Assembly (NCBI GenBank): GCA_950097015.1
Contig: CATNEN010000001.1
Span: forward strand, 23,312,001-23,376,000
Origin: Macrostomum hystrix
Lineage: Eukaryota > Animalia > Platyhelminthes
DNA: 64,000 nt
Reading direction: 5' to 3'
Shown in pieces: positions 11,400 to 63,566 of the stretch. A program made the translations under genes and the position numbers. Below the pieces are notes generated by a model. It saw only the letters and a list, made by a program, of their open reading frames with translations. It had not been told where the DNA came from and did no database searches. Every line of letters begins with the position of its first letter. The stretch's first letter is position 1.

Positions 11400-13825
11400 T
11401 CGAGCCTTCTTTCTTTCTTTCTTTTTCTACTCAGCTCGCCGGTAGCGCATCGGCGCTAATATTGGCGGGGGCCAGCGCCCCATGTCGCGGAGGTAGGCGA
11501 TAATCTTCCTGGCGGGGCCGGCCAGGGGGTCGTCTGTGCCGAAGATGCGGTGGCGGGCCGCGTCGCCCTTTGGGCAGTGGTACAGGACGTGGTCCGTGGT
11601 GTCCGTGGCGCCGCAGTCTTGGCAGGTGTCGTCGTCCTGCAGGCCTAATCGTTGTCGCGTTGCGCCACAGATGGTGCTGACCCCGGCTCGGAGTTGGTTG
11701 ATCGTAGTGAACTCGAGTCTCGATCGACCAGGGTCAGTGGGGCGGAGCGGCGGTCCTAGGATCTGTTCGTCGAGTTCCTGGCGTCCGCGGCGAATGGCAG
11801 CTCGGGCTGCCGACCTGCTAATTGCGGCATTAGCTTGGTCCTGGGCTGCGGCTTCGGCGGCAAGCGGTAGCTCGTAGGGACGAGCTGTTGGGCTTAGTGC
11901 TGCAACAGCCGGTGATGAGGCGGGCGCAGATATTTTGCTGACGCTCCACGCTCTGCCGTGTGCTGGGAGAGGCGCCGGTGACCCAGATGGCGCTGCCGTG
12001 GTCGGCGCAGGCGCGGATGGTGGCGGTGTAGATCGTCCTCAGAGTTCGGGCGTCGGCCCCGTTGCTGCGGTGCGCGATGGCCGCTAGTGCTCGGCGGCGC
12101 TGGGCCATTCGCTGCCGGATCTCTGCGCCGTGCTTGCTGAAGGTCAGCTGTCCGTCGAAGGTCACTCCCAGGAGGCGCGGGTGCGGGTTGAAAGCAAGTT
12201 CGTTGCCATCGATGGTGAGCGAAAGGCGGACTTTGCCGTTGCTCTCCGATGGGCAGAGTGTGAAGGTGGAGTATTCACACTTCTCGAGGCAGAGCAGGAC
12301 CTTCCACCTCTTGCAACACCTGACGACCGCGTCGATCGCGGAGGAATCGGTAGATCCAGAGCGTGAAGCGCGGCGGCACACCGGCGTTACGGAGTTTGAT
12401 GCAGAGGGCACGGAGCCAGACGCGGTTGTAAGCACGGCGAAAGTCGAGCAGGACAAGGGTCGAGCGGAGCGCCGGGCTGGCCTCCAGTCAGTCGAACACG
12501 GATTGGCAGACGTGAGCTAAGATTTCTTCGGTGCTCCGCCCGGTCCGGAAGCCCGCCTGTTCCGGGGCGAGGATGCCGTTGCGCTCAAGCCAGCAGCTGA
12601 GGCGTTGTTGAATCATCCGCTCGGCGGTCTTGGCCACGCAGCTGGTCAACGCGATGGGGCGGTACGACGTGGGCGACGAGAGGTCTTTGCCCTTCTTGGG
12701 GATGGGCACGATGATGGCGCGCTTCCAGCCGGTCGGGATCGGGGCGCCATTCCACACAGCGTTAACGATCGCAAGGACGCGCTGTTCTGCCGCCGGGGGG
12801 AGCTGCTTGAGCATCTCGTTGCAAATGTCATCCGGCCCGGCGCTCTTCCCAGATTTGAGGCGCCTGATCGCAGCGCGGAGCTCGACGATGGAGAAATCGT
12901 TCTCGGCATCGTTGTGGCCGGCCGTCCTGCGGCAGGAGCGGAGGTACGCGTTGGCTTCTCTGCGGGTAGGAGTGTCGTCCGTGCTCTTTTTAAGGCGGGA
13001 CTCAGCGGCGTAGATGCCGGCGAAGAGATTGGCCTTTTGGCGGTCGCTCACGGCCGTGTGCTGGTGCCCACGCTCAGTCGTGAAACTGATGCAGGCGCTG
13101 GAGCGGGCCGCCGGGGCGTCGCCACGCAGGGACCGGGCAAGTTTGAACAGATCGGAGTTGATGGTAAGACTCTCGCAGGTACGGCTCCAGTGATCGCGTT
13201 TGGCGTTGGACACCGTGGACCGGAAGTCCCTCCGGGCCCGGTTCAGATCCGCGACGTTGGTCTCGGATGGTGCAAGCTCGGTCCTGAGGCGGGCCTCTTG
13301 GCAGGATTTAAGAGCGGCGTCACAAGCTGCGTTCCAGAAGGATTTCTCTTTGCCCTTGCGGGATCCTCTGGTAATGGAGTCGGCAGCGGCCTTGAGGATG
13401 TCTTTGCAGAGGGATCTGTAGGCGCGATCGGAGTGGCGGACGCCGCCGTCAGTAGGTTCTCTCGCCGCGTTGAGGCTAGCCTTGAACAGGGTCCAGTCCG
13501 CCTTCTTGAAGGACCATTGGGTGTGGCACGGGCCTGGGCTCAGTTTTTCGGCTTGAATAGCGAAAATAATAGGTAGATGGTCGGATCCGAGGTCGGCGTC
13601 GACCTTCCAGGAATTGCACGCGGTCTGGCGCAGGGCCCCCCTAGCCCAGGTCGTGTCGGGCGCGGACTTGCCGCCTGTGGCCGGGTTGATCCTGGTGCTG
13701 AATCCTGGACGGTTGCAGAGCTGGAGCTGGCGGTCGGCGGCCCAGAGCTCCAGGGCCACGCCGCGAGCGTCCTCGGTGCAGTCAGTGTCCCAGCTGCTGT
13801 GCGCGTTGAAATCGCCATCGCGGTT
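11400..13825 (-). mobile_element. Truncated, internally deleted non-LTR retrotransposon (I/Ingi-like; APE-RT-zinc knuckle)
   Basis: APE motifs GDFNAH, PDTTW, DLGSDHLPI; RT N-terminus KSAGPDDI.NEMLK, SYRPIALTSCVAKTAERMI, EQAGFR; RT C-terminus RLLGVTFD..LTF..H; CQDC...DHVLYHCP near 11570-11625; (AGAA)n tail near 11407-11425; YxDD region missing. Confidence 0.9.
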
Positions 13826-15537
13826 ATCATTTACACATTCCACAAATGAGAATCACCGTCTTCATTAATCATCTGCAACTGAATCAATCGTGCCATTTCT
13901 TCTGTGTGGCCGAAACTTCCAAAGCGCGTTGTTTTTCTATCTTCTATCTTCTATTATTGATATACTGTGTGAAAAATGGCAATAATTGAGCTATCGAGGC
14001 GCCACCTACTGTATAGGCAATCAGATAGTAGCTCGTGCGATAATGCTTTTTTCCTCCATCCCGCCAGTTCCTGACTCTTACAATGCAGTCAAATCAATTG
14101 TTTCCAAATTCATGTTGGATGAAAGGCCTGTCTAAAGCAAGCTCTGAAAACAACTAGCTACTCAATACCTACTCAAAAACAGCTACTCAATTTTTCTTGG
14201 GAAAGTAGCATGTGGAAATATCCTATTATAATTTGGATAGGTTTGGTAAAATGTTCCTGTAATAAAATGAATGTCCTAGCTGGAGCGTGAGGTATTTAAA
14301 GCTAGCGACTATTCACTATTCACCGGGGTCGGTGTCCTACCAATCGTTTCAATAGCAGCAGGGAATCTGGAATTAAATAGCGTTAGAAACTGTTAGCGAG
14401 CGAAGCGGAATAGATAAGCGATGAGACCCGAGTGTCCTCCGGCCCGGCGAAACTCCCAATGAAAAAGAATAACACAGTATGAACGCGAAGACTCGAATAA
14501 TTTGATTAGGAGTGAGTTAATTGGCTGTGACTAAGATTCCAGATACGAATAGGAATTACTTTGAATATCGTTTACTTGACTTAAAAGTTATACTGACAGA
14601 ATAGATGTTCACACGGAAATAAATTATAGCGCGCTCACAGTGAGAAGCAAGTCTGGTCTAACAATTTGGATATAACAATTTTTTACTTAACTGGCCTACA
14701 TCCGCGCCCTACTCTTCCCGAGAGGCTCCGGTTGTCTCTGCTTTCAGCGCTGCCCCGACAGATCCTATCGGTTGGCACTCCTTCTGCCTGACGGCGGAGT
14801 CTCCGAAGAGAGCACGTACTGACTTCGACAACAAGCGCCTATCTAGACCACCCTTGTCAGCGGCGCACTCTCAAGACGCGTAGCGCCGAAAGCTACCTAA
14901 CTGAACAAGCGGAGTGTGGTCGGGCGGGGAGGGACAAAACAAGTGGACTAGTTGCACGTGCTTCTCACAGTGTGAGGCGAATTGCAGAGAAAGATAATTT
15001 GCACGTGCTTCTCACAGTGTGAGGCGAATTGCGAAGAAAAAGAGAATAATTTGGACTACAAAAACACGCTTCGTTATATAGAGTCATTTTAACCCCAAAT
15101 TAGGTCGATCGGCGAGGTGGATGCCTGGCTGTAGCTTGAGCCAAGGCGACAAATCGCAGTAGACTTGCGACCGCCATTCTGAGCCCCGGGGTCGTTTCTT
15201 GCCGAGGGTAGACAGGTAGTGAGGCCGGGTCGCTCGCTGATTGGCCGGGACCGTAGCCCAGGGGTAGCGCTCGCGGGGTGGTGGGCGTCCGTTCCCCCAG
15301 CTGGTCCGGCCCGGCTTGGCGTGGGTGAACTCTTAGCAAAAACACGTCTAAAAATAAGTACTGAATAATAACACGGGCAAACAAGCTGACACCACATTCC
15401 AATTAAGCATTCTTCAAAATACACATTGTGTCATATTGTCCGCTTCAGGTCATCTTCATTCCCCACCTAAAAAGTCGTGTCATTTTGTCCGACCGTGTCA
15501 TATTGTCCAGTTCGTGTCATTCAGTGCTCTTAAGGCC

Positions 15538-17279: not shown

Positions 17280-17950
17280 TCGTGAAACGCATTGGCCGAC
17301 AGCCTCGCCAAGGCCGGTTCGACGGGTTCGCTTTTTGGCCCCGTGCCTGCGGTCTCCACCCCTACCGCCGTCGTCAACACTCGGATTAACCAGTGGGTGA
17401 CCTCAAAGCACAAGGACAGATGGATCAATACCGCCGATTGTCGGCAGTCTCGCGCTGCTGTCCCTTGTCCCTCCACTGCCCTTCGCAAAGCCTTGCTTGG
17501 ACTGAACCGCAAGGACATCAGGGCAGTCACCATGGCCCTCTCTGGCCATGGCTGTTTCGCCAGGCACCGCTTCCTGCAAGGCAAAATCCGCAGTGAGGAA
17601 TGCCCCTTCTGCCTCTCCTATGTTGAGGATGCAGAGCATTTTATTTGCGACTGCCCCGCCTTCACTCAGGACCGGCTCACCTATCTCGGCCCAAACCCGG
17701 ATCTCCCCGACGTTTTCAGGCCTGAGAACATCTGCCAGCTCGTCCGATACCTGAGGGCCACCGGGCGAGCAACCCTCCACCTCCTGGACACTCCGGAGGA
17801 GGACCGCGCTGCGGACGCCGGCACCACCGGATCCCCATGCGCGACACCGCAGCTCTAGTTGCCCGTGGTCGCCAGGGGCTAGCGGAATGGGCGGCAACGC
17901 CTCCCCGCTGCATCCGGAAGATGCCCCCTGCAGCTAAGTCAAGTAAGTCG
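17280..17950 (+). mobile_element. 3' fragment of LOA/R1-like non-LTR retrotransposon
   Basis: ADSLAKAGS (RNase H C-terminus) ... [14 protein letters not shown]...[12 protein letters not shown] (CCHC-like C-terminal motif), then stop and short 3' UTR. Confidence 0.8.
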
Positions 17951-20184: not shown

Positions 20185-21065
20185 CACTTCCTCGGCTGTG
20201 AGCATCCTGGCCGGGACAGTGCACACCTGCCTGTTGAGCCTGCTGTCAGGTCTCAGCAGCACTCACAAACCATGGGCTCAATCACTCTCTGCATCTCGCG
20301 ACCTTCAATGCTCGCACCCTCTATCAAAACTGGAGGCTGCTTGAGCTATGCAAGGCGCAATCGACCTCTATCTCGGCATAATCGCCGTCTAAAAACATCG
20401 CCGATCTGGTCCTGAAGACCTGAGGGCTCTGCTTGACCTCCATTACTACTACCGGACGCATTGGCCAAGCCCCGTCGCCACTGCCGACCGCCGCCTTCAT
20501 GTCTTCTGCGTCTATGCTCCGACTGCCACAAGGACCATCGTGGACGACTCTGTCACAACCAATTTTTACAACACCTTGGGCCAGGCGCTGGATGGCCTTG
20601 CAAGCGTGACCATTGCTACATCACGGGCGACTTTAACGCTCCTGTGACACCTGATGGTAAAATGGTAATGAATAAATGCGGCAGATGTTACACAAACTCC
20701 TCAGATGTTCCTCAGCAGCTTCATGACTGCCTTCGACACCTGCGAGCTAGGCTTTCTGCTACATCGGCGTGTCGGTAATGAGCACTGATGTGATTGTGGA
20801 GACACGCAAGTGTATGGCCTGGCGCGCCACGTACCTACTGCGCTCGATCTTTAGATCCGAGGCCGCTGACCAGCTCAAGCTGATCTTGTCCCAAGCAGCA
20901 GTTGAATCTGTGCTGGCCCATGTCTTTGAAGCGGTTCCCTCAAGCCGGCGAACAATGCCACCATCGACGCTGCTCACCGGCAGGTGATGCAAGCTGCTCT
21001 GAGCATCAGCAATAACGAGACCATCAGTAATGCGGACCTCTACGCCGTTGTCCGCTTCTTGCCAG
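20185..21065 (+). mobile_element. RTE-like LINE, 5' part (APE, internal deletion), interrupted by Gypsy
   Basis: HLATFNARTL, VFCVYAPT and GDFNAP (APE) in shifting frames; RKCMAWRA..., LKLILSQAAVESVL (post-RT region typical of RTE); RT core absent. Confidence 0.75.
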
Positions 21066-21735
21066 TGTTGTGTCTTGGCCTAATGGCCGACGGAGGGAGA
21101 TGGGATTGGGTCCACCGCACGAGACACCTAGGTCCCAGCACAACCCTGCCTAGGCCTAACAAGTCTGATTGGTTCCGCGAGAGTTCGCAGAACCAACAAC
21201 CCTGGGACTAGCGAGAGTTCACTCGTCTCAGGTCCCTAACGGAGCGAAAGTTCACTCAGTCTTCCCACCGGCCCAACGCGGCACTCCCGGAAGAAAGAAG
21301 ACACGAACTCACCTATGTATTCTAACTCAAGCTGATAGCGGAACAGCGTGTATTGGCGGTGCGTGAATAATGAACAAGATCCGTGGCAGATAGAAAACAC
21401 AAGCGCGCGGCTTTGCAGATAGAAAAACAAGCTTATATATTTACGGTACAGGGGTAGAGAAGGGAGACAGACAAAGCCTGGGGCCACAGGACTTACCGGC
21501 CCCAGCCAATGCGAATGGTCCAGGCGGGGGAGGTGGAGAGGGGGGAGGCGGGGCTTGCGCAACGCTTGGGCATGTGCAGGTGGGCGCAGAGCAGAGAGAG
21601 GGGCTAGGCCAGGGTTGAGGCGTAAGCCTCTTACAAACCCTGACCTAGGCAGGCACGGGCGCAGGAAGGGGTGGGGCAGACATAAACACGGGTCACACAC
21701 AGAGCAGGGCAAAAGTGCATATGCACGGCACAACA
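21066..21735 (-). repeat. Gypsy 3' LTR (670 bp)
   Basis: Matches 28897-29557 apart from ~4 substitutions and 7-bp and 2-bp indels (counted by eye). Confidence 0.97.
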
Positions 21736-21755
21736 TCCTCCCCCTCCAAGAAAAA
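21736..21755 (-). other. Polypurine tract
   Basis: Minus strand TTTTCTTGGAGGGGGAGGA immediately before the 3' LTR TG. Confidence 0.9.
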
Positions 21756-22011
21756 GCAGAGCAGAAGGGGGAAATAAAAAAGCATTGCATGCGGAAAACA
21801 ACAGGAAAAAACAAAGGCTCACTGCACGAACACTTGTAAAAGTTGGGGTTTGGACCATAGACAAATACGCACCCAGGTGCCAAAGCAAAGAACGACTTTG
21901 AAGAAAACAAGTAGACGCACGCCAGAAAACAGAACACCCAACACCAGCATAAAAACAATAGGACAGAAAAATAAATTGTCATCAGCAAGGATACGCAAAA
22001 GCAACGTAGGA

Positions 22012-22830
22012 TTAATCAAAGAGTCGGCCGAAAAATCGGCTCGCGTTTGTAGCAAAAAGTTGAGTCCAATACTCACGACGGCAATCACTGTCAGCTAGGG
22101 CATCTGGCACAAAATTTACGGCGGTCGGGTCCTTGGGGTCTCCACCGAACGGTGAGGCAGATGTCACTAGAAGACGATGTCGCGGAAGTCGCCTAGCCCG
22201 TTGCACTGCTCGTGGGGATCCACGGCGACGGACTGATACCTCGAAGAATACACCGTGGCACACGTCCACGAGCACAGTCTCGACGGCTGCCGGCATGTCC
22301 AGGTCCTCAGCCAGCATGATGTACATAGCGTGGAACTCGTGCTGCTGGAGGAATCCTAGGGCGACCGCCCAGGCAGGTTCACAACCGATAACTCGGAACA
22401 GGACCGGTAGACCGAACTCCTTGGCTAGGAGAAACTGCTCCATCGCTGCAGTCAGCTGATCTTGCCGCTGTGAGCTCGTGACGTCCCAATTGAGCTCGAC
22501 TTCGCCGACAGCAACGGCACGCGGCCAGCCACCCGCTAGAAATTGTCGCAACTTGTCTCGCAGCGACGGCCACCACGTTGCAGACTCCCGTTCAGGCCCA
22601 GGGCGAACACGATCCGACGATCTTACAGCAATGGTTGCACCACGGGACAATCCCGACGTAGGCAGTAAGGTGAGTTCACAATCGCCAAGCATCGACGCAC
22701 ACCACGAAGATCTTCGGTTTGTATTGGTCGGCCCAGTCTAGTTAGATACGCCTTGGCATCGACCAAGTGTTCCTCGGAGCCGACACCGTGCTGGCCGGCG
22801 CTGCTATCGCGACTCAGCTCCTGGCCCATT
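22012..22830 (-). CDS. TatD-family (amidohydrolase TIM-barrel) homolog carried in the Gypsy; likely catalytically inactive; one frameshift near 22640-22690
   Basis: HLVDAKAYL ~ lvDsHcHL; AVAVGEVELNW ~ VVAIGECGLDF; EQFLLAKEFGLPVLFR ~ QL.LA..L.LPV.IH; RLPRHRLLVTSASPF ~ IP.DRLLIETDAPY; ATNASRFFG ~ T..NA.RLFG. Confidence 0.75.
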
Positions 22831-23191
22831 TCGGCTGTCCTTGGCTGCACTGAGTTCTCGCTGATCGGCGTTGCGGTCGACGACGAATCGAGCAGTCTTG
22901 CCATCAGGGCCTGCGAAAGGTGCGGCCCGTGACCTCGCCCTCCCGGGCGCCGCGCAGGGCCGGGACACACTACTAGAGACAGGGACCAGAGCCTCCTAAG
23001 CAAGGGACCCCCCAACTCGCAACTCAAAGCAACGCACCGCTAGCACAACACACTCAAACGCTGCCTGCAACACCGAAGGCGGAATCCGCCGACACCTCCC
23101 CGACCCAACACCGCGACCACGCTTCCTCCCATACTGATTACTCAAAAACGAAACAGACATGGCTAAAAACCTTGACAATAAAAACCTAAAC

Positions 23192-23671
23192 CTAAAAACC
23201 TAAAAACCTAACCCTAACCTTGACAACCCCTTTAAGAAACTTTGCCACCTTGCGAACGACTAGGCAAGCTCCATCACTGTCACCAACCCTAAAGCAGGAC
23301 AAAAGCGCAACTCTCAGCCGTTTACACTCAACGACTGCGGCTGGAGTTAACAACTCGGTTGGGATCTCCGCGGGAATTGGAACCTCCTCAGCGTCATCTT
23401 TGAGGCTGGTCAGAGCTAACTTGACATGCTCCGGCAAAGCAACATTCGGTGGAGGATTGAAAAAGTAGGCGTACTTTAACACCCCTTGGCACGCAGCTTC
23501 TCCATCCCGATTGTACACTTCTCGGAACACTGGATCAGTCAAGACACAAAATGCCATCACGTCTCGCGGAGACTCCGGAGACTGTCTCGGCCGATACGAC
23601 GACGGGCCGTCGAGAGTACATTCGACTACACGCTGCCTCAATTTCTGCAGAACTAGCCGTCCGACCCACAC
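23192..23671 (-). CDS. Orphan ORF inside the Gypsy 3' region (up to 159 aa)
   Basis: Open frame with globular-protein-like composition, same strand as pol; no motif recognised. Confidence 0.4.
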   Translation of the reverse strand: MWVGRLVLQKLRQRVVECTLDGPSSYRPRQSPESPRDVMAFCVLTDPVFREVYNRDGEAACQGVLKYAYFFNPPPNVALPEHVKLALTSLKDDAEEVPIPAEIPTELLTPAAVVECKRLRVALLSCFRVGDSDGACLVVRKVAKFLKGVVKVRVRFLGF

Positions 23672-23964
23672 CTACACCTACTTATAATGCCATACAAGTC
23701 AGTCGGTGTCTCCTGCGATCACATGTTGATCCTGCAATTTTTTTTGACGGTAAAGATTCCATTTACTACCGGTGTCTACCCGATTACCAAAAGCCATCCC
23801 GGATTGCCCGCCTCTAATGCCGAACAATGAAATGTAATGGAATACCTTACGAACGATGACGCAACCTGTCAATGTTATTTTTTTCTTTTCTTTTTTAGTG
23901 CATTTTATGATTTTTTGTTCTTTTTTTATCTTCCTTTGTGTGGTGTATGTGGTTTTTTTTTCTT

Positions 23965-25330
23965 TTAATACAGTATTGGATTGCCATATCGTAATGGCGG
24001 ATGACCTCTTCGGGGTCGCAAGCGGCGCGGCGACACCGGAGGTGCGTCGACGACAGGCGAGTGACGCACAGGTGCCGGTCCCTGGTTACGGTTTATTAGA
24101 GGTACAAAGACGAATTCGTCCGGGTCCCCATCTTCAAAATCGGGCTCCGACTCCTGATGGGTTCTCTCAGCCCCCTCACTCCGCCTCTTTTGCGCGTTAG
24201 ACTTCCGTTTCACTTTTCGTAAGCTTTGCAGTCCTGGAGGTCGCTCCGGAACTTTGCGAAGGTTGTTGTAATGCACAATTTTTGTCTTTTTCTTATTTTC
24301 CAAACGAATTCTGAAATTAACGTCAGAATTTTTTTCAACGACTTTGGCCGGCCCCTTTCAATAGTTGTGGAACTTTGCAGCTTCATTCGGCTGCAGGGCA
24401 GGTGAGTATTCGAGTACGGTATCACCTACTTCAATTGACGGGCCTCTGACTCTAGAATCGTACATAATCTTTTGCTTTCTCTGATATTGCTGCAGATTTT
24501 CCCTTAACTCGGAGTGCACTTCGGCTAGCCTACTCCCTAGGAGCTGCAGATACTCAGGTGCATCACCAGGCATTGACTCGGGTAAATTGCCTATATCAAC
24601 CGGCAGACACATTTCTTTTGCGTAGAGCATGTAGTACGGGGTGTACCCCGTGCCACGATGCACACTACTACGATAGGCAAGAAGTGATGGCGCGATCAAC
24701 TTCTCCCAATCACCCCGAGCTTCACTTTGACGGCATTTGATCATATACTTTAGGGTTTTATTAAAGCTCTCTGCCTGGCCATCGGCCATGGGATGGTAGG
24801 ATGTGGTTCGGCATTTCTTTACCGACATCAACTGACACAATTGCCTTACCAACAAAGACTCGAAATTAGTACCCTGTTACAAGAAACTCCGGGCACCCAA
24901 AGTGTGCAATCCAGTGGTCGAAAATAGCTTTAGCTACAGTGTGCGCCCGCTGATTTGACAGGGGAACCGCCACTGGCCATTTTGTGAACGAATCATGGAT
25001 CGTTAGCACGAATCTAGACCCGTTCCGTGATCGGGGCAACGGCCCTACAATGTCAGCCATGATTCTTTGGAACGGGGCTTCAGAAACAATTGGCTGCAAC
25101 GGAGCTCGATTGGCCTGTCTTGGCTTAGCTCTAGCACAGTGGATGCAGCTTTTACAGTACTCTTCTACTCTACGCGATAGCCCGGGCCACCAGAACCTAT
25201 CTTTTACCTTTTCCTGGGTTTTCCTTACGCCTAGGTGCCCTCCTGCTACCCCATCATGCAGCTCCTGGAACACTTTAGAGAATAACGTTGGAGGTAAGAC
25301 AATCTTTTTTACTCCTCGGTTTCCCGGGCT
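23965..25330 (-). pseudogene. Gypsy integrase, disrupted
   Basis: HDGVAGGH...CIHC zinc finger, ADIVGPLP, TTSYHPMADGQAESFN, C-terminal VHYNNLRK; the second catalytic Asp region (TDQG) is lost by a frameshift near 24870. Confidence 0.92.
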
Positions 25331-27795
25331 TCAAAAGTACAGCAACTGAGATTCTTCATGCAACAGTTGACGATGTGCCCAAAGGCCTCGCTCTTCAGTC
25401 GACATCACTACTGGCGGTTGTCCAAATCCCTCAGGATCACTAATGAAGACCCTTACACTGGAAAGCTTACTTTCTGCTTCCTGAGCTTGCTGAATTTCCT
25501 TCTTGTCAAGGCTACTTCCTAGAATGACGTTTACGACCGGACAGTTAGGCTCGTAAGAGCAGCTAGGACAGCTCTCATGTCCAGTGTGTTTGCGATATTT
25601 CCTGGATAACGAGTCTGCGTTCGAATGGTCTCGCCCAGGTCGATGGATGATTTCGAACTCGTAGTTCTGAAGGGACTCCAACCACCTAGCACACTGTCCA
25701 TCCGCATCTCTCAGACTAGTCAGCCATTTCAACGCTCTGTGATCGCTCCTGATAATAAATTTGCGGCCTAAAAGATAATAACGGTATTTCTTCACAAAAA
25801 ATGCACGATCGCTAGCAGCTCGAGACGGGTAGTGCAGTAATTCTGCTCCGCAGACGTGATACTTCGTGACCCGAAAGCGATCACCTTCTCTTTTCCATCA
25901 ACCTGCCGTTGAGACAGCACAGCACCAAGACCTACTCTGGAACTCGTATCCGTGTCCAAAATGAACTCAGCCGCCGTAGGGGCGAAGTCCGGAAATTCCA
26001 TCACGTTGGGCGAGCACAGCGCTGCCTTCAACTTACAGAATGCACTTTCTTCGTCTCCTCCCCATCTAAACTCTGTACCAGCAGCGGTCAAGCGATACAA
26101 CGGAGCTGCAATCACTGAGAAGTTCTGAATGAATGTCTGATAATACGCACAGACGCCGAGGAATGATTGAACCTTTTTTACACTGCATGGCCTCGGCCAG
26201 TTTTGAATTTCTATGCACTTATCCGAGTCTGTACCTATTCCACGGGCCGAGATCCTATGACCTAGAAACTTGATTTCACTGGCCAAGAAAACACACTTGC
26301 TAGGTTTCAACTTAACATTTGCGGCGCGCAGATGCTGAAATACATGCTCAAGACGCTCGAGATGTTGTTCCACACTCTTGGCGAAAACGACAATGTCATC
26401 GAAGTATACCAGACACTCCTTCCAATTTAGGTCTGATAAGGCCATAGACATCAGCCGGGTAAACATCGCTGGTGCATTTCGGAGGCCAAAGCTCATGCAC
26501 TTCCAAGCGAACTGACCTTTATTCGGCACGATAAACGCAGATTTTAGCTGATCTTTCGCAGCTAATGGACACTGATGATATCCGGACGCCAAATCCATCA
26601 TCGAAAAGATGCTGTTGCCTCCTAAAGCATCCATCGTCTCGTCCATTCTAGGTGGCGGGTAGGGGTCCGGAACTGTTACCTCATTTAGCCGCCTGTAATT
26701 CAGACACAGACGCAAGCTGCCATCCGGCTTTTTTACCGGAACAATGGGGCTAGCCCAAGGCGAATAGCATGGATAAATTCGATCGGTATCCAATAACTCA
26801 TCTACCTGCTTATCTACCTCGCCCTTCCAATGAGGCGGAATCCTCCTAGGAGCCAGATGGATCGGCTTGGCATCACCTGTATCGATTTCGTGCGACAAAA
26901 GGTGACTACATCCTAATTCGGAGTTGTCTTTTGCGAAAACATCGCGATTCCGAGAAATCAGCTCAATGAACTGGTTCCTTTCATTCTCAGCAAGCCCACA
27001 TTGGCCCCACTCCTTGACATCGTCCAACGGGCTCCAATTCCCGTCAGCTGCGATCGCACCGTTGACTTGCAATCCAGCGGGTTGTTGGGCGGCGATAGGC
27101 GAGAACCATCCTACTCTCGTTCCCTTTCTCAGGGAAAGAGGACAGTCTGACGTGTTAAGGATTCTCACGGGCATGAGTCCTTCATCTCCAGGCTTCTGGA
27201 TCGATCTAGCAACCATGCGCTCATGACTGAATCGCTGCTCAGACTCTACCATTCCTAGAAACTGGACTCCAGCGACTCCGTACCGCTGAACCCTGACCTG
27301 GACAATCTTTTCTTGCCCTGCACTGCTCGGATCTACTCAGAATCAGACGGCACAGCCGCGGCTTTTTCGCTGTCAGACGGAACGGATAAACATACGCGCC
27401 TGCCTGCAAGCAAGTTCGAGCAAAATCGATTGACATGCCGTTCTTGAGAAAAAATCTACACCCAAAATGCACTCAGCAGACAGGTGATCAACAATAGCAA
27501 ACTCTTGCTCAAACTCAGTTTCACCAACCTGGAAAGTTATCTTCGCTGTTCCACACACAGGAATTGCCTCACCATTAGCAGTAAAGATTGACCATTGATT
27601 CAGATTAGGGACGACTTGAATCTTCAACTTGTTTTGATTCACTACTGTACGATTAAGAATTGACACGGTAGCACCACTATTCAACAGACACGCTATCGAG
27701 GGCCCAGAGCCAAACTTGGCATCCAGATAGCCTAACCCAGTTCTGCTCAATACACTCTGGGTCAAGGCTGGAGCCCTCGGAGGACTCGAACTCAA
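25331..27795 (-). pseudogene. Gypsy protease-RT-RNase H, disrupted
   Basis: LLNSGATVS (protease, D->N), SPWASPIVPVKKPDGSLRLC, DLASGYHQ, FGLRNAP, YFDD, ILDTDTS, ELLAIV, SDHRAL, NADSLSR; several frameshifts. Confidence 0.95.
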
Positions 27796-28768
27796 TGGCG
27801 CGGGGGCCCGGGACGCTGACCCACCCGAGCCCCGCTCCCGTTTCCCTGACTACCGCGATTCCAAAGCTGATAGCAGCCGTTCCGCAAGTGGCCCGGCTGA
27901 CCACACTCAAGACAGACGACTGGATTCCTGCACTGAGACGCCCCATGTCCCAACTGCAGGCATCGACTACAAGACCTTGGTTGTTGGGGCGCCGCAGACC
28001 CCCCTGCTGAAGCCCCTTCGCCGGCTGGACTTTTGGATGAACTATCGGCTTTGAGTTCGCCACGGAAGCTGCACTAGCCTTCAGCTGTGCTATTTCGGCT
28101 TTTAAAGCTACAATCTCAGCTACCTCCTCGCTCCGTTGCGCTACGGGCTGGCTCTCTATCATGTGGACTCCTCGACTAGACCCTCCTCTGTATTCCAGCA
28201 ACTTCATGGAAGCCATGGTTTGGCGAACTCTCTGGACAGCCTCCTGCAGAGTCTCTGGGTTGTGCATTAGCACGCCCTCCAGCACTCGAGTCAGTACTTT
28301 AATGCCTTTTAGGAAACGATCCTTAGCCAGTTCATCCCGCTGGGCGGCTGGTAAGTTAGGATAAGCTTTTCTCATGAGCTCCCTAAGCGAGTCAGCGAAG
28401 TCTTCAATCGCCTCTCCCTCTTTCTGGTGTCGGCCTTGGAATTCTAATTTGTAGTCCTGAGCAGTCCTGTTCTGACAGAAACGAGCCTTTAATCGCTCGA
28501 TAAACTCCTCATACGTTAATCCTTCATCTAGTTCCATGTTCGCTACAGCCTTAAACGCAGTCCCAAAGTCAAGAAGGCTTATCAACGTCTGTCGACGCTG
28601 CTCCGGTGCAACCTGCGCTGCATCACAGTATACTGTGAACTGTTGCAACCACAGGGTGAAATCCTGCGATGTTGCGTACTTATTTCGCCGTGGTACGCGT
28701 TGAGCTACATTTAACTGATTTTGCATGCGCACTGTCAGGGCGTCGATTAGATCATCTAAATTAGCCAT
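27796..28768 (-). pseudogene. Gypsy gag, frameshifted before the zinc knuckles
   Basis: QKEGEAIEDFADSLRELMRKAYP...RFLKGI capsid-like motif; CLECGQPGHLRNGC CCHC knuckle in a shifted frame near 27870-27965. Confidence 0.9.
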
Positions 28769-28875
28769 GGCTACAAAAGCAAAAACAATGCTCCAGCACA
28801 GCGACACGGACACACCGAGACAAACACAACAAACAGATCACACACACCTGCGCTAGGACAACGGGGAAGACTGGA

Positions 28876-28893
28876 ATCCTGGTCACGGCACCA
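28876..28893 (-). other. Primer-binding site, tRNA-His type
   Basis: Minus strand TGGTGCCGTGACCAGGAT, 3 nt after the 5' LTR; complementary to a tRNA-His 3' end. Confidence 0.85.
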
Positions 28894-28896
28894 CTT

Positions 28897-29557
28897 TGTT
28901 GTGTCTTGGCCTAATGGCCGACGGAGGGAGATTGGATTGGGTCCACCGCACGAGACACCCAGGTCCCAGCACAACCCTGCCTAGGCCTAACAAGTCTGAT
29001 TGGTTCCGCGAGAGTTCGCAGAACCAACCACCCTGGGACTAGCGAGAGTTCACTCGTCTCAGGTCCCTAACGGAGCGAAAGTTCACTCAGTCTTCCCACC
29101 GGCCCAACGCGGCACTCCCGGAAGAAAGAAGACACGAACTCACCTATGTATTCTAACTCAAGCTGATAGCGGAACAGCGTGTATTGGCGGTGCGTGAATA
29201 ATGAACAAGATCCGTGGCAGATAGAAAACACAAGCGCGCGGCTTTGCAGATAGAAAAACAAGCTTATATATTTACGGTACAGGGGTAGAGAAGGGAGACA
29301 GACAAAGCCTGGGGCCACAGGACTTACCGGCCCCAGCCAATGCGAATGGTCCAGGCGGGGGAGGTGGGGAGGCGGGGCTTGCGCAACGCTTGGGCATGGG
29401 CAGGTGGGCGCAGAGCAGAGAGAGGGGCTAGGCCAGGGTTGAGGCGTAAGCCTCTTACAAACCCTGACCTAGGCAGGCACGGGCGCAGGAAGGGGTGGGG
29501 CAGACATAAACACGGGTCACACAGAGCAGGGCAAAAGTGCATATGCACGGCACAACA
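28897..29557 (-). repeat. Gypsy 5' LTR (661 bp)
   Basis: Direct repeat of 21066-21735. Confidence 0.97.
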
Positions 29558-29845
29558 CCAGCGTCGCCTGCTGGGCCACTGCCTCCGCGCCCACCACCGC
29601 AACTGCGGTCCGCCCCTGGCTGAAATCCTTCTGGCTCAGCAAGGGGCACCGCTGCGCTGAGGACAAGCCCGTTACTGAACCTTTCTTAAGACTTTCTATG
29701 ATGACCTGACGTCGATTGGCCTGACGCCTGTGATTGCTTCTCGCCTTGACTCCAAGGCCTTCAAGCTGCGTGTGCTCGCTGCTTATAAAAGCGGTGTCTG
29801 TTATTGCTATATTATTATTATTATTCTATTATTATTATTACTACA
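29558..29845 (+). mobile_element. RTE-like LINE 3' end with (TAT)n tail
   Basis: QRRLLGHCLR...PLAEILL continues the sequence left of the Gypsy target-site duplication; ends in tattattattatt. Confidence 0.75.
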
Positions 29846-31373: not shown

Positions 31374-32693
31374 TTTGATAAAACATAAACTAAAAAAATT
31401 GTGTTCTTTAGGCTTACACCTAATAACAGTGGCTTATCCAAGGGGGGTAAAGGGATAGGCCCTACACCCCATAGGCTGTAGGCATTGTCATTTTTTCTGT
31501 AAATTTCTTAGAGTCAATGAACTGTAGCATCTAAGTCAGGGTATAGGGCCTAAGTAAAATTAAAAATAATTTTTTAAATATTTGTTTAATAACTGTAACC
31601 CTCATGGGTTACAGTTTGAAACAGTTACAAAATCCTGGTTGTGCACCTGTTTGTCAGCTGGATGTGTATGTTTGGCCACAGTTGCATTGTTTTATTCAAA
31701 AGATTCCTAGTCTAGATACATGTGCAACCTCCCAAATCTTAGCTGGCCGTTCGACTTAGTTTTTGGTCTATTCATGACTTAGTTTGCTCTCATTTGCTCT
31801 TTTTCTCTCCCCTTTTTCTCTTCTTCATGCCTTCCTTTTTTGTCCCTTGGTCCCCCCTTTGATTTTTTTGCACTTGGTTGATTGGTTTTTGCGACTTACC
31901 TTGCTTGGCCCTCGTTTCACCTGGCCAGGTCGGTCGGCCAGGTATTGCGCATGTATGTTGTAGTGTATGTCTATATTGTTCCTATACCAGCTTGTTGTGT
32001 TATATAGGTAGGGCTAATAAAAAGTTTCAAAATAATTAGCTAGCTGACAGACAAATTTTAATTATTTTAACCTTATGTCTTACTCAGTTAAATCTAATTT
32101 AAACATACTTTTGTGGGTCAGAAATGCAGGATATTGATAATTATTTTAGTAATGAGATATAAGTCAAGTAAATTTTTTTTCTGTGTTAGTAAGTATATAT
32201 AAGCATAGCTAATTGTAGGGGAACTGCATGGGCACAATGTTTAAATGTGTTGGTCACTTGCTAATTTAACTACGTTATGTTAGTTGGAGTTTGTAGTTAA
32301 AGAGATGTTCAATAACCAAGAATGTTGTTTGTCATATATATTTTAGTAATATAAATAGACTAATATAATATGCAAGTATAATCATTGTGTGTTCCCTGTT
32401 AAGTAGCCTGTGTCCTATTTATAATGGCCTATAAAGTTGTGAGTCAAATATAAAACAAAATATATAAGATAAATTTCTGTTGTAATCTCAACAAAAAAGT
32501 TCCCAAGTAAGAACTCTGAAGTAAGCAAAGAGAAAATCTAAATGTTTTTTATAGGCATCAAATGTTATTTACTAATTTGTTCTTAAAGACTAAGCCTTTA
32601 TTCTGCATAAAACCTTAGTTTTGCTATATCAAGATTATTTAATTTTGCTATTGCAGATATTGTTAGGCAAAAAAGTTACAACAGCAAAGCAAT

Positions 32694-35600
32694 ATGGCTA
32701 CCATTAAACGAAATTTGAAAAACATTGTACACAATTACTCCGATGCTCAAGTGAAAGTTCGCGAAGCCACATCCAATGATCCATGGGGCCCATCTAGTAC
32801 ACTGATGTCTGAGATATCCGATATGACTAACAATGTCATGGCCTACACTGAGATTATGTCCATGATCTGGAAACGGTTGAATGACAAGAACAAAAACTGG
32901 CGCCACGTGTACAAGGCTCTGGTTCTGTTGGAGTACCTCATCAAAACTGGCAGCGAGAAGGTTGCCCAGCAGTGCAAAGAGAATCTATTCGCCATTCAGT
33001 CCTTGAGAGATTTCCAGTACACGGAGGAGGCCAAGGACCACGGCTTGAATGTGCGAGAGAAGGCTAAAAATCTTGTGGCTCTCTTAAAGGACGATGAGAA
33101 GCTGAAGTCAGAGCGACAAAGCGCCATCAAGGCCAAGGAGAGGCTGCGGCACGGAGGTGGCTTCAGCTCTGAGGACCGGCCGCCTGACAGGTGAGACTAA
33201 TTGCTGATTGATGGACAGGTGTAAATACATTCTATTGGTTAATTACCTTGGTAATCCTTGGATTTGATTGACATGTATTGTAACTGTATACTTATTAACA
33301 TTTAGTGAGACAGACTGAAGATAGATTGACAAGTATAGAGACAGGTTACTGTAGACTGATTGACAGGTAATAGTAAAGAGACAGGTTATTGTAGACTGAT
33401 TGACAGGTAATAGTAAAGAGACAGGTTACTATATATTGATTCACAGGTAAGAGTAAAGAGACAGGTTACTATATATTGATTGACAGGTAAGAGTAAAGAG
33501 ACAGGTTACTATATATTGATTGACAGGTAAGAGTAAAGAGACAGGTTACTATAGATTGATTGACAGGTAAGAGTAAAGAGACAGGTTACTATATATTGAT
33601 TGACAGGTAAGAGTAAAGAGACAGGTTACTATAGATTGATTGACAGGTAAGAGTAAAGAGACAGGTTACTATAGATTGATTGACAGGTAAGAGTAAAGAG
33701 ACAGGTTACTAAAGATTGATTGACAGGTAAGAGTAAAGAGACAGGTTACTGTAGATTGATTGACAGGTAAGAGTAAAGAGACAGGTTGTTGTAGATTGAT
33801 TGACAGGTAAGAGTAAAGAGGCTGGTTACTGTAGATTGATTGACGGGTAAGAGTAAAGAGACAGGTTGTTGTAGATTGATTGACAGGTAAGAGTAAAGAG
33901 ACAGGTTATTGTTGACTTATAGACAAGAGATTCTAAGAATTGATGGACAGGTACAGACAGTCTGTAGATTGATAGGTGGGTTAGGCCAGGTAGAGTCAGA
34001 TTGTGATGGCTATCAGAGGCATGTACTTTTACAGTTTGAGCTGACTGGCCCCCATTCACCTGCAGGTCCCGCTTGGAAGCTCAGCGCCGGTCAGAGTCGG
34101 GCGCAGGCGCAGCCCCGGGTGCCGCTGCCTCGGCGCAGGAGGCGGAGGATCTGCAGCTGCAGCTGGCGCTGGCCATCTCTCGCGAGGAGCATCAGCAGGA
34201 GCTGAAGAGACGCGAAGCCGAGGGACAGAAGGAGGAGCTGAAACTGAAGATGGCTTTGGAGGCCAGCAAGAAGGAGGAGGAGGTGAGAATGGCATGAAAC
34301 TGGAGTTTATTAATCAGTAGAGCTACAAAGGGGTACACCCCTGACACTTTTTGTGCTACACCATAACGGAACAACGCATGCAGACGAAACTCAAGAATAC
34401 GAAATTTATCAGCATGTCACCCGACTGTGCCTACATCATCTCCGTCTTCGGCGGTCACCTACTTTTATCTAGACGGATTTGCTGGACCTTCAAGGGCTAT
34501 AACAGGTGGAACTAGACCACTATGGACACCCTGACGCTATTAAATATTAGGCGCAGCTCAACCACAGGACACCCTCGCCTAGTCTGTCAACCAATCGGGC
34601 ACCACCCAACTTGGGGAGGTAGATTTCCCCAATCCCTGGCTTGGTAGTCCTACTGTTAACTAATGCAGTGATTTCACGAAATTCTTATCAGTGGTCGTGA
34701 GTTCGAAAATCTGAGGCTCGAACCACATTCCTTTGGGGGTCCAACTTTTAAGGCACAGTGAGAGTGTACACTGCCTGATCATGAGAAAGTCAGGGCAGAT
34801 GTACACACCTGCGTGCGCGTGCGCGTGTGCTCAGGAGTCAGCGGAATGGGCAGAATTGCCTCCTCGCTGGCTGCGGGTCTAGTGTCACCAAATGATGTAC
34901 CATGACCTTGTTATTCCCTTGTTATTTTCGTTAGAAGAGAGACATGAAAATAGTACAGACCCCAGAGTTGTGTGCCGTAAATCCCCGTCCATTGTTTGCC
35001 AATCCCAAAGGTGCTGTCCCCGCTGAGAATGCCGCCAAAGCAACAGCAAAATGCTGTTCAACCAGTTTCCAACGCTGATTCAGATTTTGTGAGTATCTGC
35101 AGCATGGCTTAGCAAAATTGTACTCAAGTATTTTAGAAGTTTTTATTAAAAAAATGGCTATTACTGGTTGTTGAAATTGTTGCCAACACAATCTTGGATG
35201 GTTCGGTAATTTTATTAGCAATGTCTACATGGATTATACATTTGTTACATTGTGGTTGCGAAATAGATATTGCATTTAATAGAACTAGCTTGTAATAAAC
35301 CAGATTTTGTTTATTTGTAGATTTCAAATAATTCAGCGAAATTCATTAGCTTAAATGCGTGATTCATTTAGGTTACAAATTCACTTTCCGACGAGTTTAA
35401 ATTGTGTCAAGTTAAAGAAATTCCGTTGCACTAGTTTTTAACAAGTTTTTTTTCGAGTCCTGATAAATTAGTGTGCTTTCTTTCTAGTGAACAGCTCTTT
35501 TTAGAAAAAGATTCATAGATAAAACAGATTGAAAAGAGACGGAATGTAAAGGAAGAAATTCTGTTAGTCCGGCAATCTTTTTTGGATTTTACGGTTTACG

Positions 35601-38600
35601 TTAACGTTTTGACGTGCGCTATTGCTGCTGCTGATGCATGAGCTAGTGCCATATGCAGCCGAGTGAAGGAGTTGTAGCCTAGTGAAGGGTTGTAGCCTAG
35701 AGAAGGAGTTGTAGCCTAGTGAAGGGGTTGTATCCTAGTGAAGGGGTTGTATCCTAGTGAAGGGGTTGTATCCTAGTGAAGGAGTTGTAGCCTAGAGAAG
35801 GGGTTGTATCCTAGTGAAGGGGTTGTAGCCTAGTGAAGGGGTTGTATCCTAGTGAAGGGGTTGTATCCTAGTGAAGGGGTTGTATCCTAGTGAAGGGGTT
35901 GTATCCTAGTGAAGGGGTTGTATCCTAGTGAAGGGGTTGTATCCTAGTGAAGGGGTTGTATCCTAGTGAAGGGGTTGTATCCTAGTGAAGGGGTTGTATC
36001 CTAGTGAATGGGTTGTAGCCTAGTGAAGGGGTTGTAGCCTAGTGAAGGGGTTGTAGCCTAGTGAAGGGGTTGTATCCTAGTGAAGGGGTTGTATCCTAGT
36101 GAAGGGGTTGTATCCTAGTGAAGGGGTTGTATCCTAGTGAAGGGGTTGTATCCTAGTGAATGGGTTGTAGCCTAGTGAAGGGGTTGTAGCCTAGTGAAGG
36201 AGTTGTAGCCTAGTGAAGGGGTTGTATCCTAGTGAAGGGGTTGTAGCCTAGTGAAGGGGTTGTATCCTAGTGAAGGGGTTGTATCCTAGTGAAGGGGTTG
36301 TAGCCTAGTGAAGGGGTTGTATCCTAGTGAAGGGGTTGTATCCTAGTGAAGGGGTTGTAGCCTAGTGAAGGGGTTGTATCCTAGTGAAGGGGTTGTAGCC
36401 TAGTGAAGGGGTTGTATCCTAGTGAAGGGGTTGTATCCTAGTGAAGGAGTTGTAGCCTAGAGAAGGGGTTGTATCCTAGTGAAGGGGTTGTAGCCTAGTG
36501 AAGGGGTTGTATCCTAGTGAAGGGGTTGTATCCTAGTGAAGGGGTTGTATCCTAGTGAAGGGGTTGTATCCTAGTGAATGGGTTGTAGCCTAGTGAAGGG
36601 GTTGTAGCCTAGTGAAGGAGTTGTAGCCTAGTGAAGGGGTTGTATCCTAGTGAAGGGGTTGTATCCTAGTGAAGGAGTTGTAGCCTAGAGAAGGGGTTGT
36701 ATCCTAGTGAAGGGGTTGTATCCTAGTGAAGGGGTTGTATCCTAGTGAAGGAGTTGTAGCCTAGAGAAGGGGTTGTATCCTAGTGAAGGGGTTGTAGCCT
36801 AGTGAAGGGGTTGTATCCTAGTGAAGGGGTTGTATCCTAGTGAAGGGGTTGTATCCTAGTGAAGGAGTTGTAGCCTAGTGAAGGGGTTGTATCCTAGTGA
36901 AGGGGTTGTATCCTAGTGAAGGAGTTGTAGCCTAGAGAAGGGGTTGTATCCTAGTGAAGGGGTTGTAGCCTAGTGAAGGGGTTGTATCCTAGTGAAGGGG
37001 TTGTATCCTAGTGAAGGGGTTGTAGCCTAGTGAAGGGGTTGTATCCTAGTGAAGGGGTTGTATCCTAGTGAAGGAGTTGTAGCCTAGAGAAGGGGTTGTA
37101 TCCTAGTGAAGGGGTTGTAGCCTAGTGAAGGGGTTGTATCCTAGTGAAGGGGTTGTATCCTAGTGAAGGGGTTGTATCCTAGTGAATGGGTTGTATCCTA
37201 GTGAAGGGGTTGTAGCCTAGATAAGGGGTTGTATCCTAGTGAAGGGGTTGTAGCCTAGTGAAGGGGTTGTAGCCTAGATAAGGGGTTGTATCCTAGTGAA
37301 GGGGTTGTAGCCTAGTGAAGGGGTTGTATCCTAGTGAAGGGGTTGTATCCTAGTGAAGGGGTTGTAGAAGTGGTTGTATCCTAGTGAAGGGGTTGTATCC
37401 TAGTGAAGGGGTTGTAGCCTAGTGAAGGGGTTGTAGCCTAGTGAAGGGGTTGCAGCCTAGTAAAGGGGTTGTAGCCTAGTGAAGGGGTTGTATCCTAGTG
37501 AAGGGGTTGTAGCCTAGTGAAGGGGTTGTATCCTAGTGAAGGGGTTGTAGAAGTGGTTGTATCCTAGTGAAGGGGTTGTATCCTAGTGAAGGGGTTGTAG
37601 CCTAGTGAAGGGGTTGTAGCCTAGTGAAGGGGTTGCAGCCTAGTAAAGGGGTTGTAGCCTAGTGAAGGGGTTGTATCCTAGTGAAGGGGTTGTAGCCTTA
37701 TGGTTAGATTTTCGGAACCCTCACAACTTGAAGGTCCGGGGTTCGAATCCCGACTCCATTGGAGCAATCGGTGCCTCATTGTCTTGACACTTTACTCTGC
37801 ATTTAGTAGTTTGGTAACCCCAGTCCATGGACTGAACAGCCGTACGCAGCCTTCAGATGCGCCGTGCAATAGCTGCGGCTTTTGCTAAGTTTTGGCAGGT
37901 GTAATCAGTTATTAATGTTACAGTTTTCATAGGCCAGTGACCAGTGAAACCTATGAATTCGTGGTAATTTCTCATTTGTTCACTTATTTACAGCTAGCTA
38001 GACCTAGCTTTACAAATGAGCGATTGACCATAAGCGAAATTCTCTCTAGTTGACATAATAATTATCATTGAATGATCTGATGAACTGCGAAATACATTTG
38101 CTTATTCTGTTAGCTAGCATTGTGTACAACAACCTGTCAACTGTAACCTCAGTGGTATTGCATTGCCAACTTCAGCCAACCTATTAATATGTTTAATAGC
38201 GTTGTTCTGTTCCGCCAAATATTTTAATCGTTGTATGGTTCGGTTAGGTGATATTAAACATACACTTCTTAAATTAGACTAAATAACTTTTTAACGTATG
38301 CTTTAAACTACAATTTATAACAAAACATTACGAATTAATTTCTGTGCTTTTTTGCAAATCATTTAATTTTTAGGAACGAAAGAAAAATGATGTCACAGGT
38401 GGTGCATCAGTGAGTAAAATTGTGTTTTAAAATAACTCTTAATTTCACACTATTTTCTAGCTGTTAGACACAGAATCACACCTGTTCTACGCATGCCCAG
38501 CTGTGTTAGACACAGAATCACACCTGTTCTAAGCATGCCCAGCTGTGTTAGACACAGAATCACACCTGTTCTACGCATGCCCAGCTGTGTTAGACACAAT

Positions 38601-61278: not shown

Positions 61279-61708
61279 CAGAGAAAAGACTGGGGAGAGA
61301 GTGGTCGTTAGACGCTCTCGAGCGAACACTGAAAAGCCTCGCCCACACAAACTGACCCGGAGGATCAGCGGCCAGCGAGCGCAAACGGTGAGTCCGTTAA
61401 TTTTTCTCTTGGAACAGACGCGCCTTCAAATTGCCGGACACAAGCCCTGGCCTACGACTCCAGCGGAATAGAAACAGGCGAGATAAAAACACTGCAGAGA
61501 ACTGAGAAAAATCAATACACAGTCAAGCGCTCAATGCCTCTCTTTTCGCCGCTTCGGTCTCTCCCAATGCTCGATGCGCTGCTTAATTAAATCCGACGAA
61601 CTGGAAACAGACGACCACAGCAGCGACCGTAGCGTCCCAGTCTCCGCTTGAAGAGCCTCACGAAACCCAACTGAAAGTTCACTAGAGAGTCCGTCAAGCG
61701 GAAGCGTC

Positions 61709-63215: not shown

Positions 63216-63246
63216 GTGAGTGGTCAAAAGCTCCGTTTTGTGTTCT

Positions 63247-63566
63247 TAATAATTGCAGGAGGGCTGCGGGCAATGGCACATCATTTAACGATACTAGACC
63301 TGCAGCCATCGAGGAGGCAATTCTGCCCATTTCGCTGATTCCTGAGCACATTCGCACACTGATACTGTACGCAGACTTTTTTCGTCAGGCAGTGTACATT
63401 TCACTGTTCCTTAGAGTTAGGCCCTCAAGGGCGTAAATTGCACGACAAGCCCCCAAGCCTTCTCTCCGCGGCTGCGCCCCAAATAAATGTGGCCTCGCCG
63501 CGGAATCGAACTTAGGGACCTTGGCGCGAGAGGCAAACGCGTTAACCGCTCTGCCACCGACCCCCC
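63247..63566 (-). mobile_element. Full-length tRNA-derived SINE, family B
   Basis: Minus strand GGGGGTCGGTGGCAGAGCGG (A-box) ... AGTTCGATTCC (B-box), followed by the body shared with the 34690 and 56320 copies. Confidence 0.85.

What the first reader, a model, noticed from the sequence alone, without database searches (positions are those of the whole stretch)
22012..22830. Gypsy retrotransposon carrying a TatD-like pseudo-nuclease where env would be
Seen: between integrase and the polypurine tract, on the element's sense strand, a ~260-aa reading (one frameshift) aligns end to end with TatD TIM-barrel motifs (LVD.., VAVGE, QF.LAKEFGLPV, LP..RLLV...PF, NA.RFFG). Established: TatD DNases use HxH, E, H, H and D metal ligands; canonical Gypsy elements carry only gag/pol and sometimes env or a chromodomain. 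Here only the GE glutamate is kept (HxH->KAY, H->R, H->M/L, ETD->TSA). Inference: the LTRs differ by only ~4 substitutions, so this clustered loss of ligands in an otherwise conserved fold probably predates this insertion. That suggests a retrotransposon lineage that domesticated TatD as a non-catalytic nucleic-acid binder, for example to protect cDNA, chaperone RNA or act as a decoy against host nucleases or silencing.
Basis: partly seen in the sequence, partly recalled or inferred. Interest (0 to 1): 0.88.

Follow-up and report, generated by a model that had tools for sequence, protein, structure and literature searches.

The report
Flatworm retrotransposon's disarmed nuclease-chaperone gene
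A Gypsy-type jumping gene, likely from a Macrostomum flatworm, carries a third gene that joins a chaperone-like domain to a TatD nuclease-like domain; both lack their usual working residues, yet the nuclease-like part shows purifying selection between copies, so the protein likely binds rather than cuts.

Summary
The TatD resemblance is real. It scores Pfam E=4e-5 and profile-profile 95-96% over 214-222 columns, and true TatDs are the next hits among 1.84 billion proteins. It lies on the sense strand between integrase and PPT of a complete, broken Gypsy element. Corrections: the frameshift is near 22583, there is also a stop at 22623-25, and the start at 22829 is not conserved. The TatD part is the C-terminal domain of a larger ORF3 (23724-22012) that begins with a J-like domain lacking HPD. 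Relatives in three other runs lack these two lesions. Differences to one relative give dN/dS about 0.2 (24 synonymous of 38). Only 1 of 6 metal ligands, the bridging Glu, is kept. The same losses occur in two Macrostomum lignano models (79-81% identity) and, where covered, in a 50%-identity relative, so they are old. Best reading: a non-catalytic accessory protein that probably binds nucleic acid; function is inferred only. Residual activity is not excluded, because the kept Glu is the one ligand whose single mutation cut both TATDN1 activities. Ten literature searches found no report. This scan noted the same kind of ORF3 five times in another flatworm genome, which gave the J-domain lead.

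The parts
28897..29557 (-). 5' LTR (TG...CA)
   Evidence: LTR pair alignment; 4-bp target-site duplication at 29558-29561 and 21062-21065
28876..28893 (-). Primer-binding site
   Evidence: TGG-starting tract 3 bases after the 5' LTR; the priming tRNA was not tested
23965..28768 (-). gag-pol (capsid, 2 zinc knuckles, protease, RT, RNase H, integrase), broken by several frameshifts and stops
   Evidence: ORF list; Pfam
22012..23724 (-). ORF3 remnant, J-like + linker + TatD-like. Broken in this copy by stops (second codon; 22623-22625) and frame breaks near 23675, 23581, 23200, 23017 and 22583
   Evidence: tblastn of P0001 covers 23733-22060 in five pieces; relatives' contigs
23500..23700 (-). 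J-like domain, HPD motif replaced (RPV here, RPR in P0001)
   Evidence: P0001 Pfam DnaJ E=0.007; against E. coli DnaJ score 80, 0 of 5000 shuffles as high; window pieces 23/30 and 87/119 identical to P0001
23225..23499 (-). Conserved segment after the J-like domain, no family hit
22911..23224 (-). A-poor, G/T-rich mid-linker without counterpart in P0001 or P0003; possible in-frame intron or low-complexity linker
   Evidence: composition and acceptor-like site; no alignment to P0001
22012..22766 (-). TatD-like TIM-barrel domain lacking 5 of 6 metal ligands
21736..21747 (-). Polypurine tract
21066..21735 (-). 3' LTR

Best explanation
This is the broken copy of a third gene in a Gypsy retrotransposon family, likely of Macrostomum flatworms, encoding a J-like domain fused to a TatD-like domain that has lost its two-metal site and likely acts as a non-cutting binder for the element. 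Shown: position, homology of both modules, ligand loss across relatives, and purifying selection on the TatD part. Inferred: the protein would be made from a subgenomic, possibly spliced RNA. The barrel would keep a nucleotide or strand-end pocket in which an invariant Arg stands where a metal-binding His was, next to the kept Glu. It would then hold or cap ends of the element's RNA or cDNA and shield them from host 3'-5' nucleases or help the particle assemble. The HPD-less J-like module would serve as a docking surface rather than as an Hsp70 activator.
For: Homology: hhalign 95%, E 3e-8, 214 columns; 96%; of 6 hits among 1.84 billion proteins, 3 are family members and 3 are TatD enzymes, Pfam; 11 of 14 PDB hits are TatD, best E 3e-5. 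Selection: 24 synonymous and 14 non-synonymous of 38 listed differences to run X10, dN/dS 0.18-0.22, p 1e-6 to 2e-5; in five of the six segment-by-wrong-frame controls there is no synonymous excess at all, and the sixth is not significant. X11 differences fall on third codon positions at 15 of 20 sites in the TatD part, against 7 of 17 in the adjacent linker. Old ligand loss: the same pattern in P0001 and P0003; Glu kept, His->Arg and ETD lost in P0004 at 50% identity. These eight active-site columns are conserved in 79-80 of 80 control TatDs. Charge: the P0001 barrel has net +6 against a mean of -10.7 (maximum -2) in 80 bacterial TatDs. PMC10085689 cites an E. coli TatD-trinucleotide structure without metal.
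Against: No binding, expression or activity data exist. PMC10085689 concludes that both metals are needed to engage nucleic acid fully in the site. The DNA-intercalating Arg119 position of TATDN1 is not a conserved Arg in the three family sequences (read by eye). The C-terminal 188 residues of the window copy are not basic (21 K/R, 22 D/E), and no eukaryotic TatDs were in the charge control. dN/dS rests on one pair and on 38 of the 68 differences in that contig. That P0001, P0003 and P0004 lie in LTR elements was not shown here. The second barrel His maps ambiguously, and the HxH column is placed by whole-length alignment only.
Confidence: 0.55

Rival explanations
1. The protein is a decoy or scaffold that acts through protein contacts: both disarmed modules mimic host J-proteins and TATDN nucleases and occupy their partners (Hsp70 system, repair or silencing factors), without binding nucleic acid.
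For: Both modules lost their catalytic motifs in parallel. A long invariant surface-like stretch unrelated to TatD conservation is kept at 50% identity (P0001 residues 672-680). M. lignano LTR elements are known to tap the heat-shock response at the promoter level (PMC12801592).
Against: HPD, the Hsp70-contact motif (established knowledge, recalled), is the part lost. No canonical three-unit heat-shock element lies in this element. No partner is identified.
Confidence: 0.25
2. The barrel keeps weak or altered catalytic activity, using the kept glutamate with one metal or with cationic side chains in place of metal.
For: In TATDN1 only E112A cut both activities; single changes of D222, E220, H149 and H174 did little (PMC10085689). 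That Glu is the residue kept in all family sequences. Class I TatDs work without HxH.
Against: Five of six ligands are lost together, and the catalytic mechanism needs two metals. D218A cut TATDN3 activity 30-fold. KAY fits neither the HxH nor the (G/A)xN class.
Confidence: 0.12
3. A one-off captured host or bacterial gene fragment is decaying neutrally inside the element.
For: This copy is broken at several places. The Pfam score is below the family cut-off.
Against: Relatives lack the lesions, dN/dS is about 0.2 and 69 of 150 columns are invariant down to 50% identity. The lesions fit decay after insertion: about 11 indels are expected over the internal region at the LTR-pair rate, though that rate rests on only 2 events.
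Confidence: 0.05

Closest known systems
Non-env ORF3s of bdelloid rotifer LTR retrotransposons Juno and Vesta (DEDDy exonuclease, GDSL esterase; PMC5408684)
   Same: A third ORF of enzymatic origin in the env slot of a Gypsy-like element, including a 3'-5' exonuclease fold; function untested.
   Different: Those keep their catalytic residues and showed no significant departure from neutrality within the genome. Here the fold is TatD, the site is lost, selection is detected, and a J-like domain is fused.
TatD / YcfH / TATDN nucleases (PF01026, TIGR00010; PMC10085689)
   Same: Sequence homology along the barrel; GE glutamate; AVGE, LAKE..LP, LP..RLL and NA.RFF motifs; best PDB matches are S. aureus YcfH.
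   Different: Neither HxH nor (G/A)xN; the other His ligands and ETD are lost; the score is below the Pfam cut-off; it is a retrotransposon cargo domain.
J-domain proteins (PF00226)
   Same: Helix I-II and helix IV motifs align with E. coli DnaJ well above chance.
   Different: HPD is replaced and helix III is poorly conserved; Pfam score 16.8 against a cut-off of 27.8.
Burro/GYPSM1 giant Gypsy elements of planarians (PMC6431247)
   Same: Flatworm Gypsy elements carrying captured host-like regulatory domains.
   Different: There the domains (BIR, BCL2-like, ankyrin, MATH) lie in a huge polyprotein with env; the passages read name no TatD or J domain (those terms were not searched in it).
Maelstrom and EXD1 (inactive DEDD nuclease derivatives, as described in PMC5408684)
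   Same: Precedent for a nuclease fold that keeps RNA binding after losing its catalytic site.
   Different: These are host piRNA-pathway proteins of another fold, not transposon cargo.

Membership tests
TatD nuclease family | Sequence homology to the TatD profile | tested here: met
   E=3.8e-5 Pfam; hhalign 95-96%; TatD enzymes are the nearest non-family hits
TatD nuclease family | Reaches the curated Pfam cut-off (27 bits) | tested here: not met
   23.6 bits for the window piece, 20.2 for P0001
TatD nuclease family | TIM-barrel fold | tested here: inconclusive
   A model of P0001 538-776 gave pLDDT 74.6 and Foldseek's top 12 were TatD, but 39 of the 41 alignment rows were TatD enzymes, so this is partly circular. 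The single-sequence model failed (pLDDT 38.5).
TatD nuclease family | N-terminal HxH or (G/A)xN motif | tested here: not met
   KAY in the window and P0001, and no difference listed there for X11; the column is placed by whole-length alignment only
TatD nuclease family | Bridging glutamate (GE) | tested here: met
   Kept in the window, P0001 and P0004
TatD nuclease family | Two barrel histidines and ETD aspartate | tested here: not met
   His->Arg; no His in the HCF column of the three family sequences; ETD->TSA or ASG
TatD nuclease family | Metal-dependent exonuclease / AP-endonuclease activity | not testable with these tools
   needs an assay
J-domain proteins | Homology to the J-domain | tested here: met
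   0 of 5000 shuffles reach the score against DnaJ; Pfam E=0.007 for P0001. The window's separate fragments gave no Pfam hit (0 of 4).
J-domain proteins | HPD motif | tested here: not met
   RPR in P0001, RPV in the window
Ty3/Gypsy LTR retrotransposons | LTRs, TSD, PBS, PPT and the order gag-PR-RT-RH-IN | tested here: met
Ty3/Gypsy LTR retrotransposons | Clade placement by an RT tree | not tested
   no reference RT set was at hand
env-bearing elements (errantivirus type) | ORF3 is a membrane fusion glycoprotein | tested here: not met
   ORF3 pieces hit TatD and DnaJ and no env family in Pfam

The most novel reading that the evidence does not exclude
A flatworm retrotransposon lineage has built a double pseudo-enzyme from two captured genes: a TatD barrel in which cationic side chains replace the metals, making a cap for RNA or cDNA ends, tied to an HPD-less J-domain that engages or jams the host chaperone system, made from a spliced subgenomic RNA. 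It would be a transposon-encoded counter-defence protein of a kind not found in the literature searched.
Probability: 0.3. Interest if true: 0.85.

Novelty: new variant of a known kind. Interest (0 to 1): 0.62.

Why it matters
Third ORFs of LTR retrotransposons are mostly env or of unknown origin, and whether non-env ORF3s benefit the element is an open question (PMC5408684 found no clear selection). Here an ORF3 has recognisable parents, a clear loss of both active motifs, and measurable purifying selection, in a genus with an established transgenic and RNAi model (M. lignano). That makes the accessory-gene question testable. It also gives a natural metal-free TatD variant that bears on how TatD binds nucleic acid.

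Tried and rejected
No whole genome is held for the window, so copies could not be collected. The word-indexed protein search at 132-422 aa found 0 of 998 candidates. Locus scans with the single protein found no relative in metagenome contigs (0 of 133 stretches) or viral contigs (0 of 17). A scan with the 3-sequence alignment gave 8 of 394 stretches, of which 7 read as ordinary TatDs with HxH and/or ETD and 1 was too short to judge. Single-sequence AlphaFold gave pLDDT 38.5 and no match at Z>=5. phmmer against the PDB with the single ORF gave only E 0.7-2.1, though 6 of 7 hits were TatD. The ESM Atlas never returned a result. No RNA holder was listed, which says nothing about expression. Run X9 laid no contig. 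No canonical three-unit heat-shock element lies in 21000-29600. Rejected: the join at 22623-22692, the start at 22829, and assembly error as the source of the breaks (window-type versions are present in X1 short-read contigs at the breaks). I also considered that the copy was already dead when it inserted, and could not support it: the lesion count fits the LTR-pair rate. No complex prediction was sent, as no specific partner is claimed.

Full report
Anatomy. The finding lies in an 8.5-kb minus-strand element, 29557-21066. The LTRs align with 657 matches, 4 substitutions and 2 gaps. A 4-bp target-site duplication, a PBS and a PPT are present. Pfam finds capsid, zinc knuckles, protease, RT, RNase H and integrase in Gypsy order, in several frame pieces. 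The host is probably a Macrostomum flatworm: the closest proteins are two M. lignano gene models, P0001 and P0003, at 79-81% identity. The species was not determined, and no genome was held.

Is it TatD? Yes by homology, no by active site. The piece 22015-22581 hits PF01026 at E=3.8e-5, 23.6 bits, below the cut-off of 27. All 5 NCBIfam hits are TatD-type or related metal-dependent hydrolase models. On a profile of 80 bacterial TatDs (77 of 80 fetched loci plus 3 E. coli proteins), the window reading with X at its breaks scores 20.5 bits; the best of 1002 decoys scores 4.7. Profile-profile alignment gives 95-96% over 214-222 columns. An index-free search of 1.84 billion proteins gave 6 hits: three family members and three TatD enzymes, the best at E=1e-6. 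Against that, HMMER aligns only from profile position ~80 on, and the N-terminal part alone is not above shuffles (164 of 200). A confident barrel model (pLDDT 74.6; TatD structures in Foldseek ranks 1-12) was obtained only with a TatD-rich alignment and is partly circular. The single-sequence model failed.

Where the copy is broken. Eleven DNA runs from 4 studies hold part of the stretch; six were laid. Contigs of X5, X10 and X11, 90-95% alike, all differ from the window by one indel near 22583 and lack the stop at 22623-25. P0001 reads through both places in one frame. Window-type versions appear in X1 short-read contigs, so the breaks are not assembly errors. About 11 indels would be expected over the internal region at the LTR-pair rate, so decay after insertion suffices; that rate rests on 2 events in short repeats.

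The gene is larger than reported. Earlier notes of this scan (five notes on another flatworm genome; leads only) pointed to a J-domain, which I then tested. P0001 residues 330-775 carry a J-like domain (Pfam E=0.007) and the TatD-like domain in one frame and align to the window from 23733 to 22060 in five pieces. The J-like part scores 80 against E. coli DnaJ, with 0 of 5000 shuffles as high, and HPD is replaced by RPR (RPV in the window). By hand arithmetic on the contig lengths (table 8), relatives' net length from 23724 to 22012 is a multiple of three, about 560 codons. Stops in their mid-linker could not be checked, since 186 substitution rows and 31 indel rows were not shown. P0001 and P0003 lack about 100 codons of that mid-linker. 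The region is A-poor and ends at an in-phase acceptor-like site, and one relative's contig shows a donor-like motif at its start (read by eye). An in-frame intron is therefore possible, but both models are automatic and carry unrelated flanks.

Selection. Of the 68 differences in the X10 contig, 38 were listed inside the TatD part and used; the stop site, four 3'-UTR sites and the unlisted ones (mostly 22125-22379) were left out. 24 are synonymous and 14 are not: dN/dS 0.18-0.22, p 1e-6 to 2e-5. The synonymous excess follows the frame switch at ~22583 and is absent or not significant in the other frames. X11 shows 15 of 20 differences at third positions in the TatD part and 7 of 17 in the adjacent linker; X10 and X11 are the same coded organism and share most differences, so they are not independent. 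Selection on the J-like part was not measured at codon level, but it is 73-77% identical to P0001 while the linker does not align.

Active site. PMC10085689 (abstract and three Results sections read) defines a two-metal site: HxH or (G/A)xN, a bridging Glu, two His and an Asp. Here only the Glu is kept: KAY; His->Arg; no His in the HCF column; ETD->TSA; and the substrate His of GxHP is gone. P0001 and P0003 share this pattern, and P0004 at 50% identity has Glu, Arg and ASG but lacks the N-terminal part. The Arg that replaces His is invariant in the three aligned sequences. The same paper tempers the conclusion: the kept Glu is the only ligand whose single change cut both TATDN1 activities, and single loss of the others was tolerated. 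Loss of five at once makes two-metal catalysis unlikely but is not a test.

Mechanism. I commit to a non-cutting accessory protein that probably binds ends of the element's RNA or cDNA (0.55). Rivals are a protein-level decoy or scaffold (0.25), residual catalysis (0.12) and neutral cargo (0.05). That ORF3 is a real, selected, lineage-wide gene with a lost canonical site is much firmer (about 0.85) than any stated function.

What is known. Enzyme-derived ORF3s are described in rotifer LTR elements, with intact catalytic residues and no clear selection (PMC5408684; abstract, section 3.3 and Discussion read). Planarian Burro elements carry other captured domains (PMC6431247; passages). The M. 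lignano LTR survey (PMC12801592; abstract, first of two parts of Results, term searches of the main text and 5 supplements, supplement 1 whole) has no TatD and no DnaJ in its main text; in one supplement DnaJ occurs 13 times, and the rows seen were ordinary transcript annotations. PMC8905726 (passages) has no TatD. Ten searches (listings seen) returned no paper whose title or abstract start describes TatD or a J-domain in a retrotransposon. Subscription journals, Repbase, Dfam and the supplements of the bioRxiv version of the M. lignano paper were not visible and may bear on novelty. UniProt labels P0001 automatically as 'J domain-containing protein'.

Verdict. It was not found in print, but this scan has already noted it on other DNA. 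Interest 0.62.

Noticed in passing
window 22911-23224 (-): The A-poor, G/T-rich mid-linker of ORF3 has no counterpart in both M. lignano gene models and ends at an in-phase acceptor-like site. It may be an intron retained in genomic RNA. Its first ~45 bases are a low-complexity T/G tract that differs from all relatives.
   Followed up: partly
window 20324-21065 and 29558-29800: The element seems to have inserted into a decayed LINE-like sequence (weak Exo_endo_phos hit, E=0.057, at 20437-20775).
   Followed up: no
window 27373-27849 (-): The protease motif reads LNSGA in this copy, with Asn at the usual catalytic Asp position (motif recalled).
   Followed up: no
window 32667-33194 (+), further pieces near 45488-46021: Host epsin gene (ENTH, E=7e-52), with NPF-motif pieces downstream.
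   Followed up: no
window 35554-37600: Tandem array with a 19-bp period, about 95 copies in register.
   Followed up: no
window 11427-13852 (-) and 17286-17858 (+): Non-LTR retrotransposon fragments (endonuclease, RT and RNase H-like readings, recognised by eye).
   Followed up: no
window 49595-51323, 54148-56313, 61652-63436 (+): Host genes resembling a SAM-domain protein, a dynein intermediate chain and a metabotropic glutamate receptor (recognised by eye; names recalled).
   Followed up: no
P0004 (unnamed Logan contig, 1208 bases): A 50%-identity family member from an unknown organism; its context would show how far the family reaches.
   Followed up: partly
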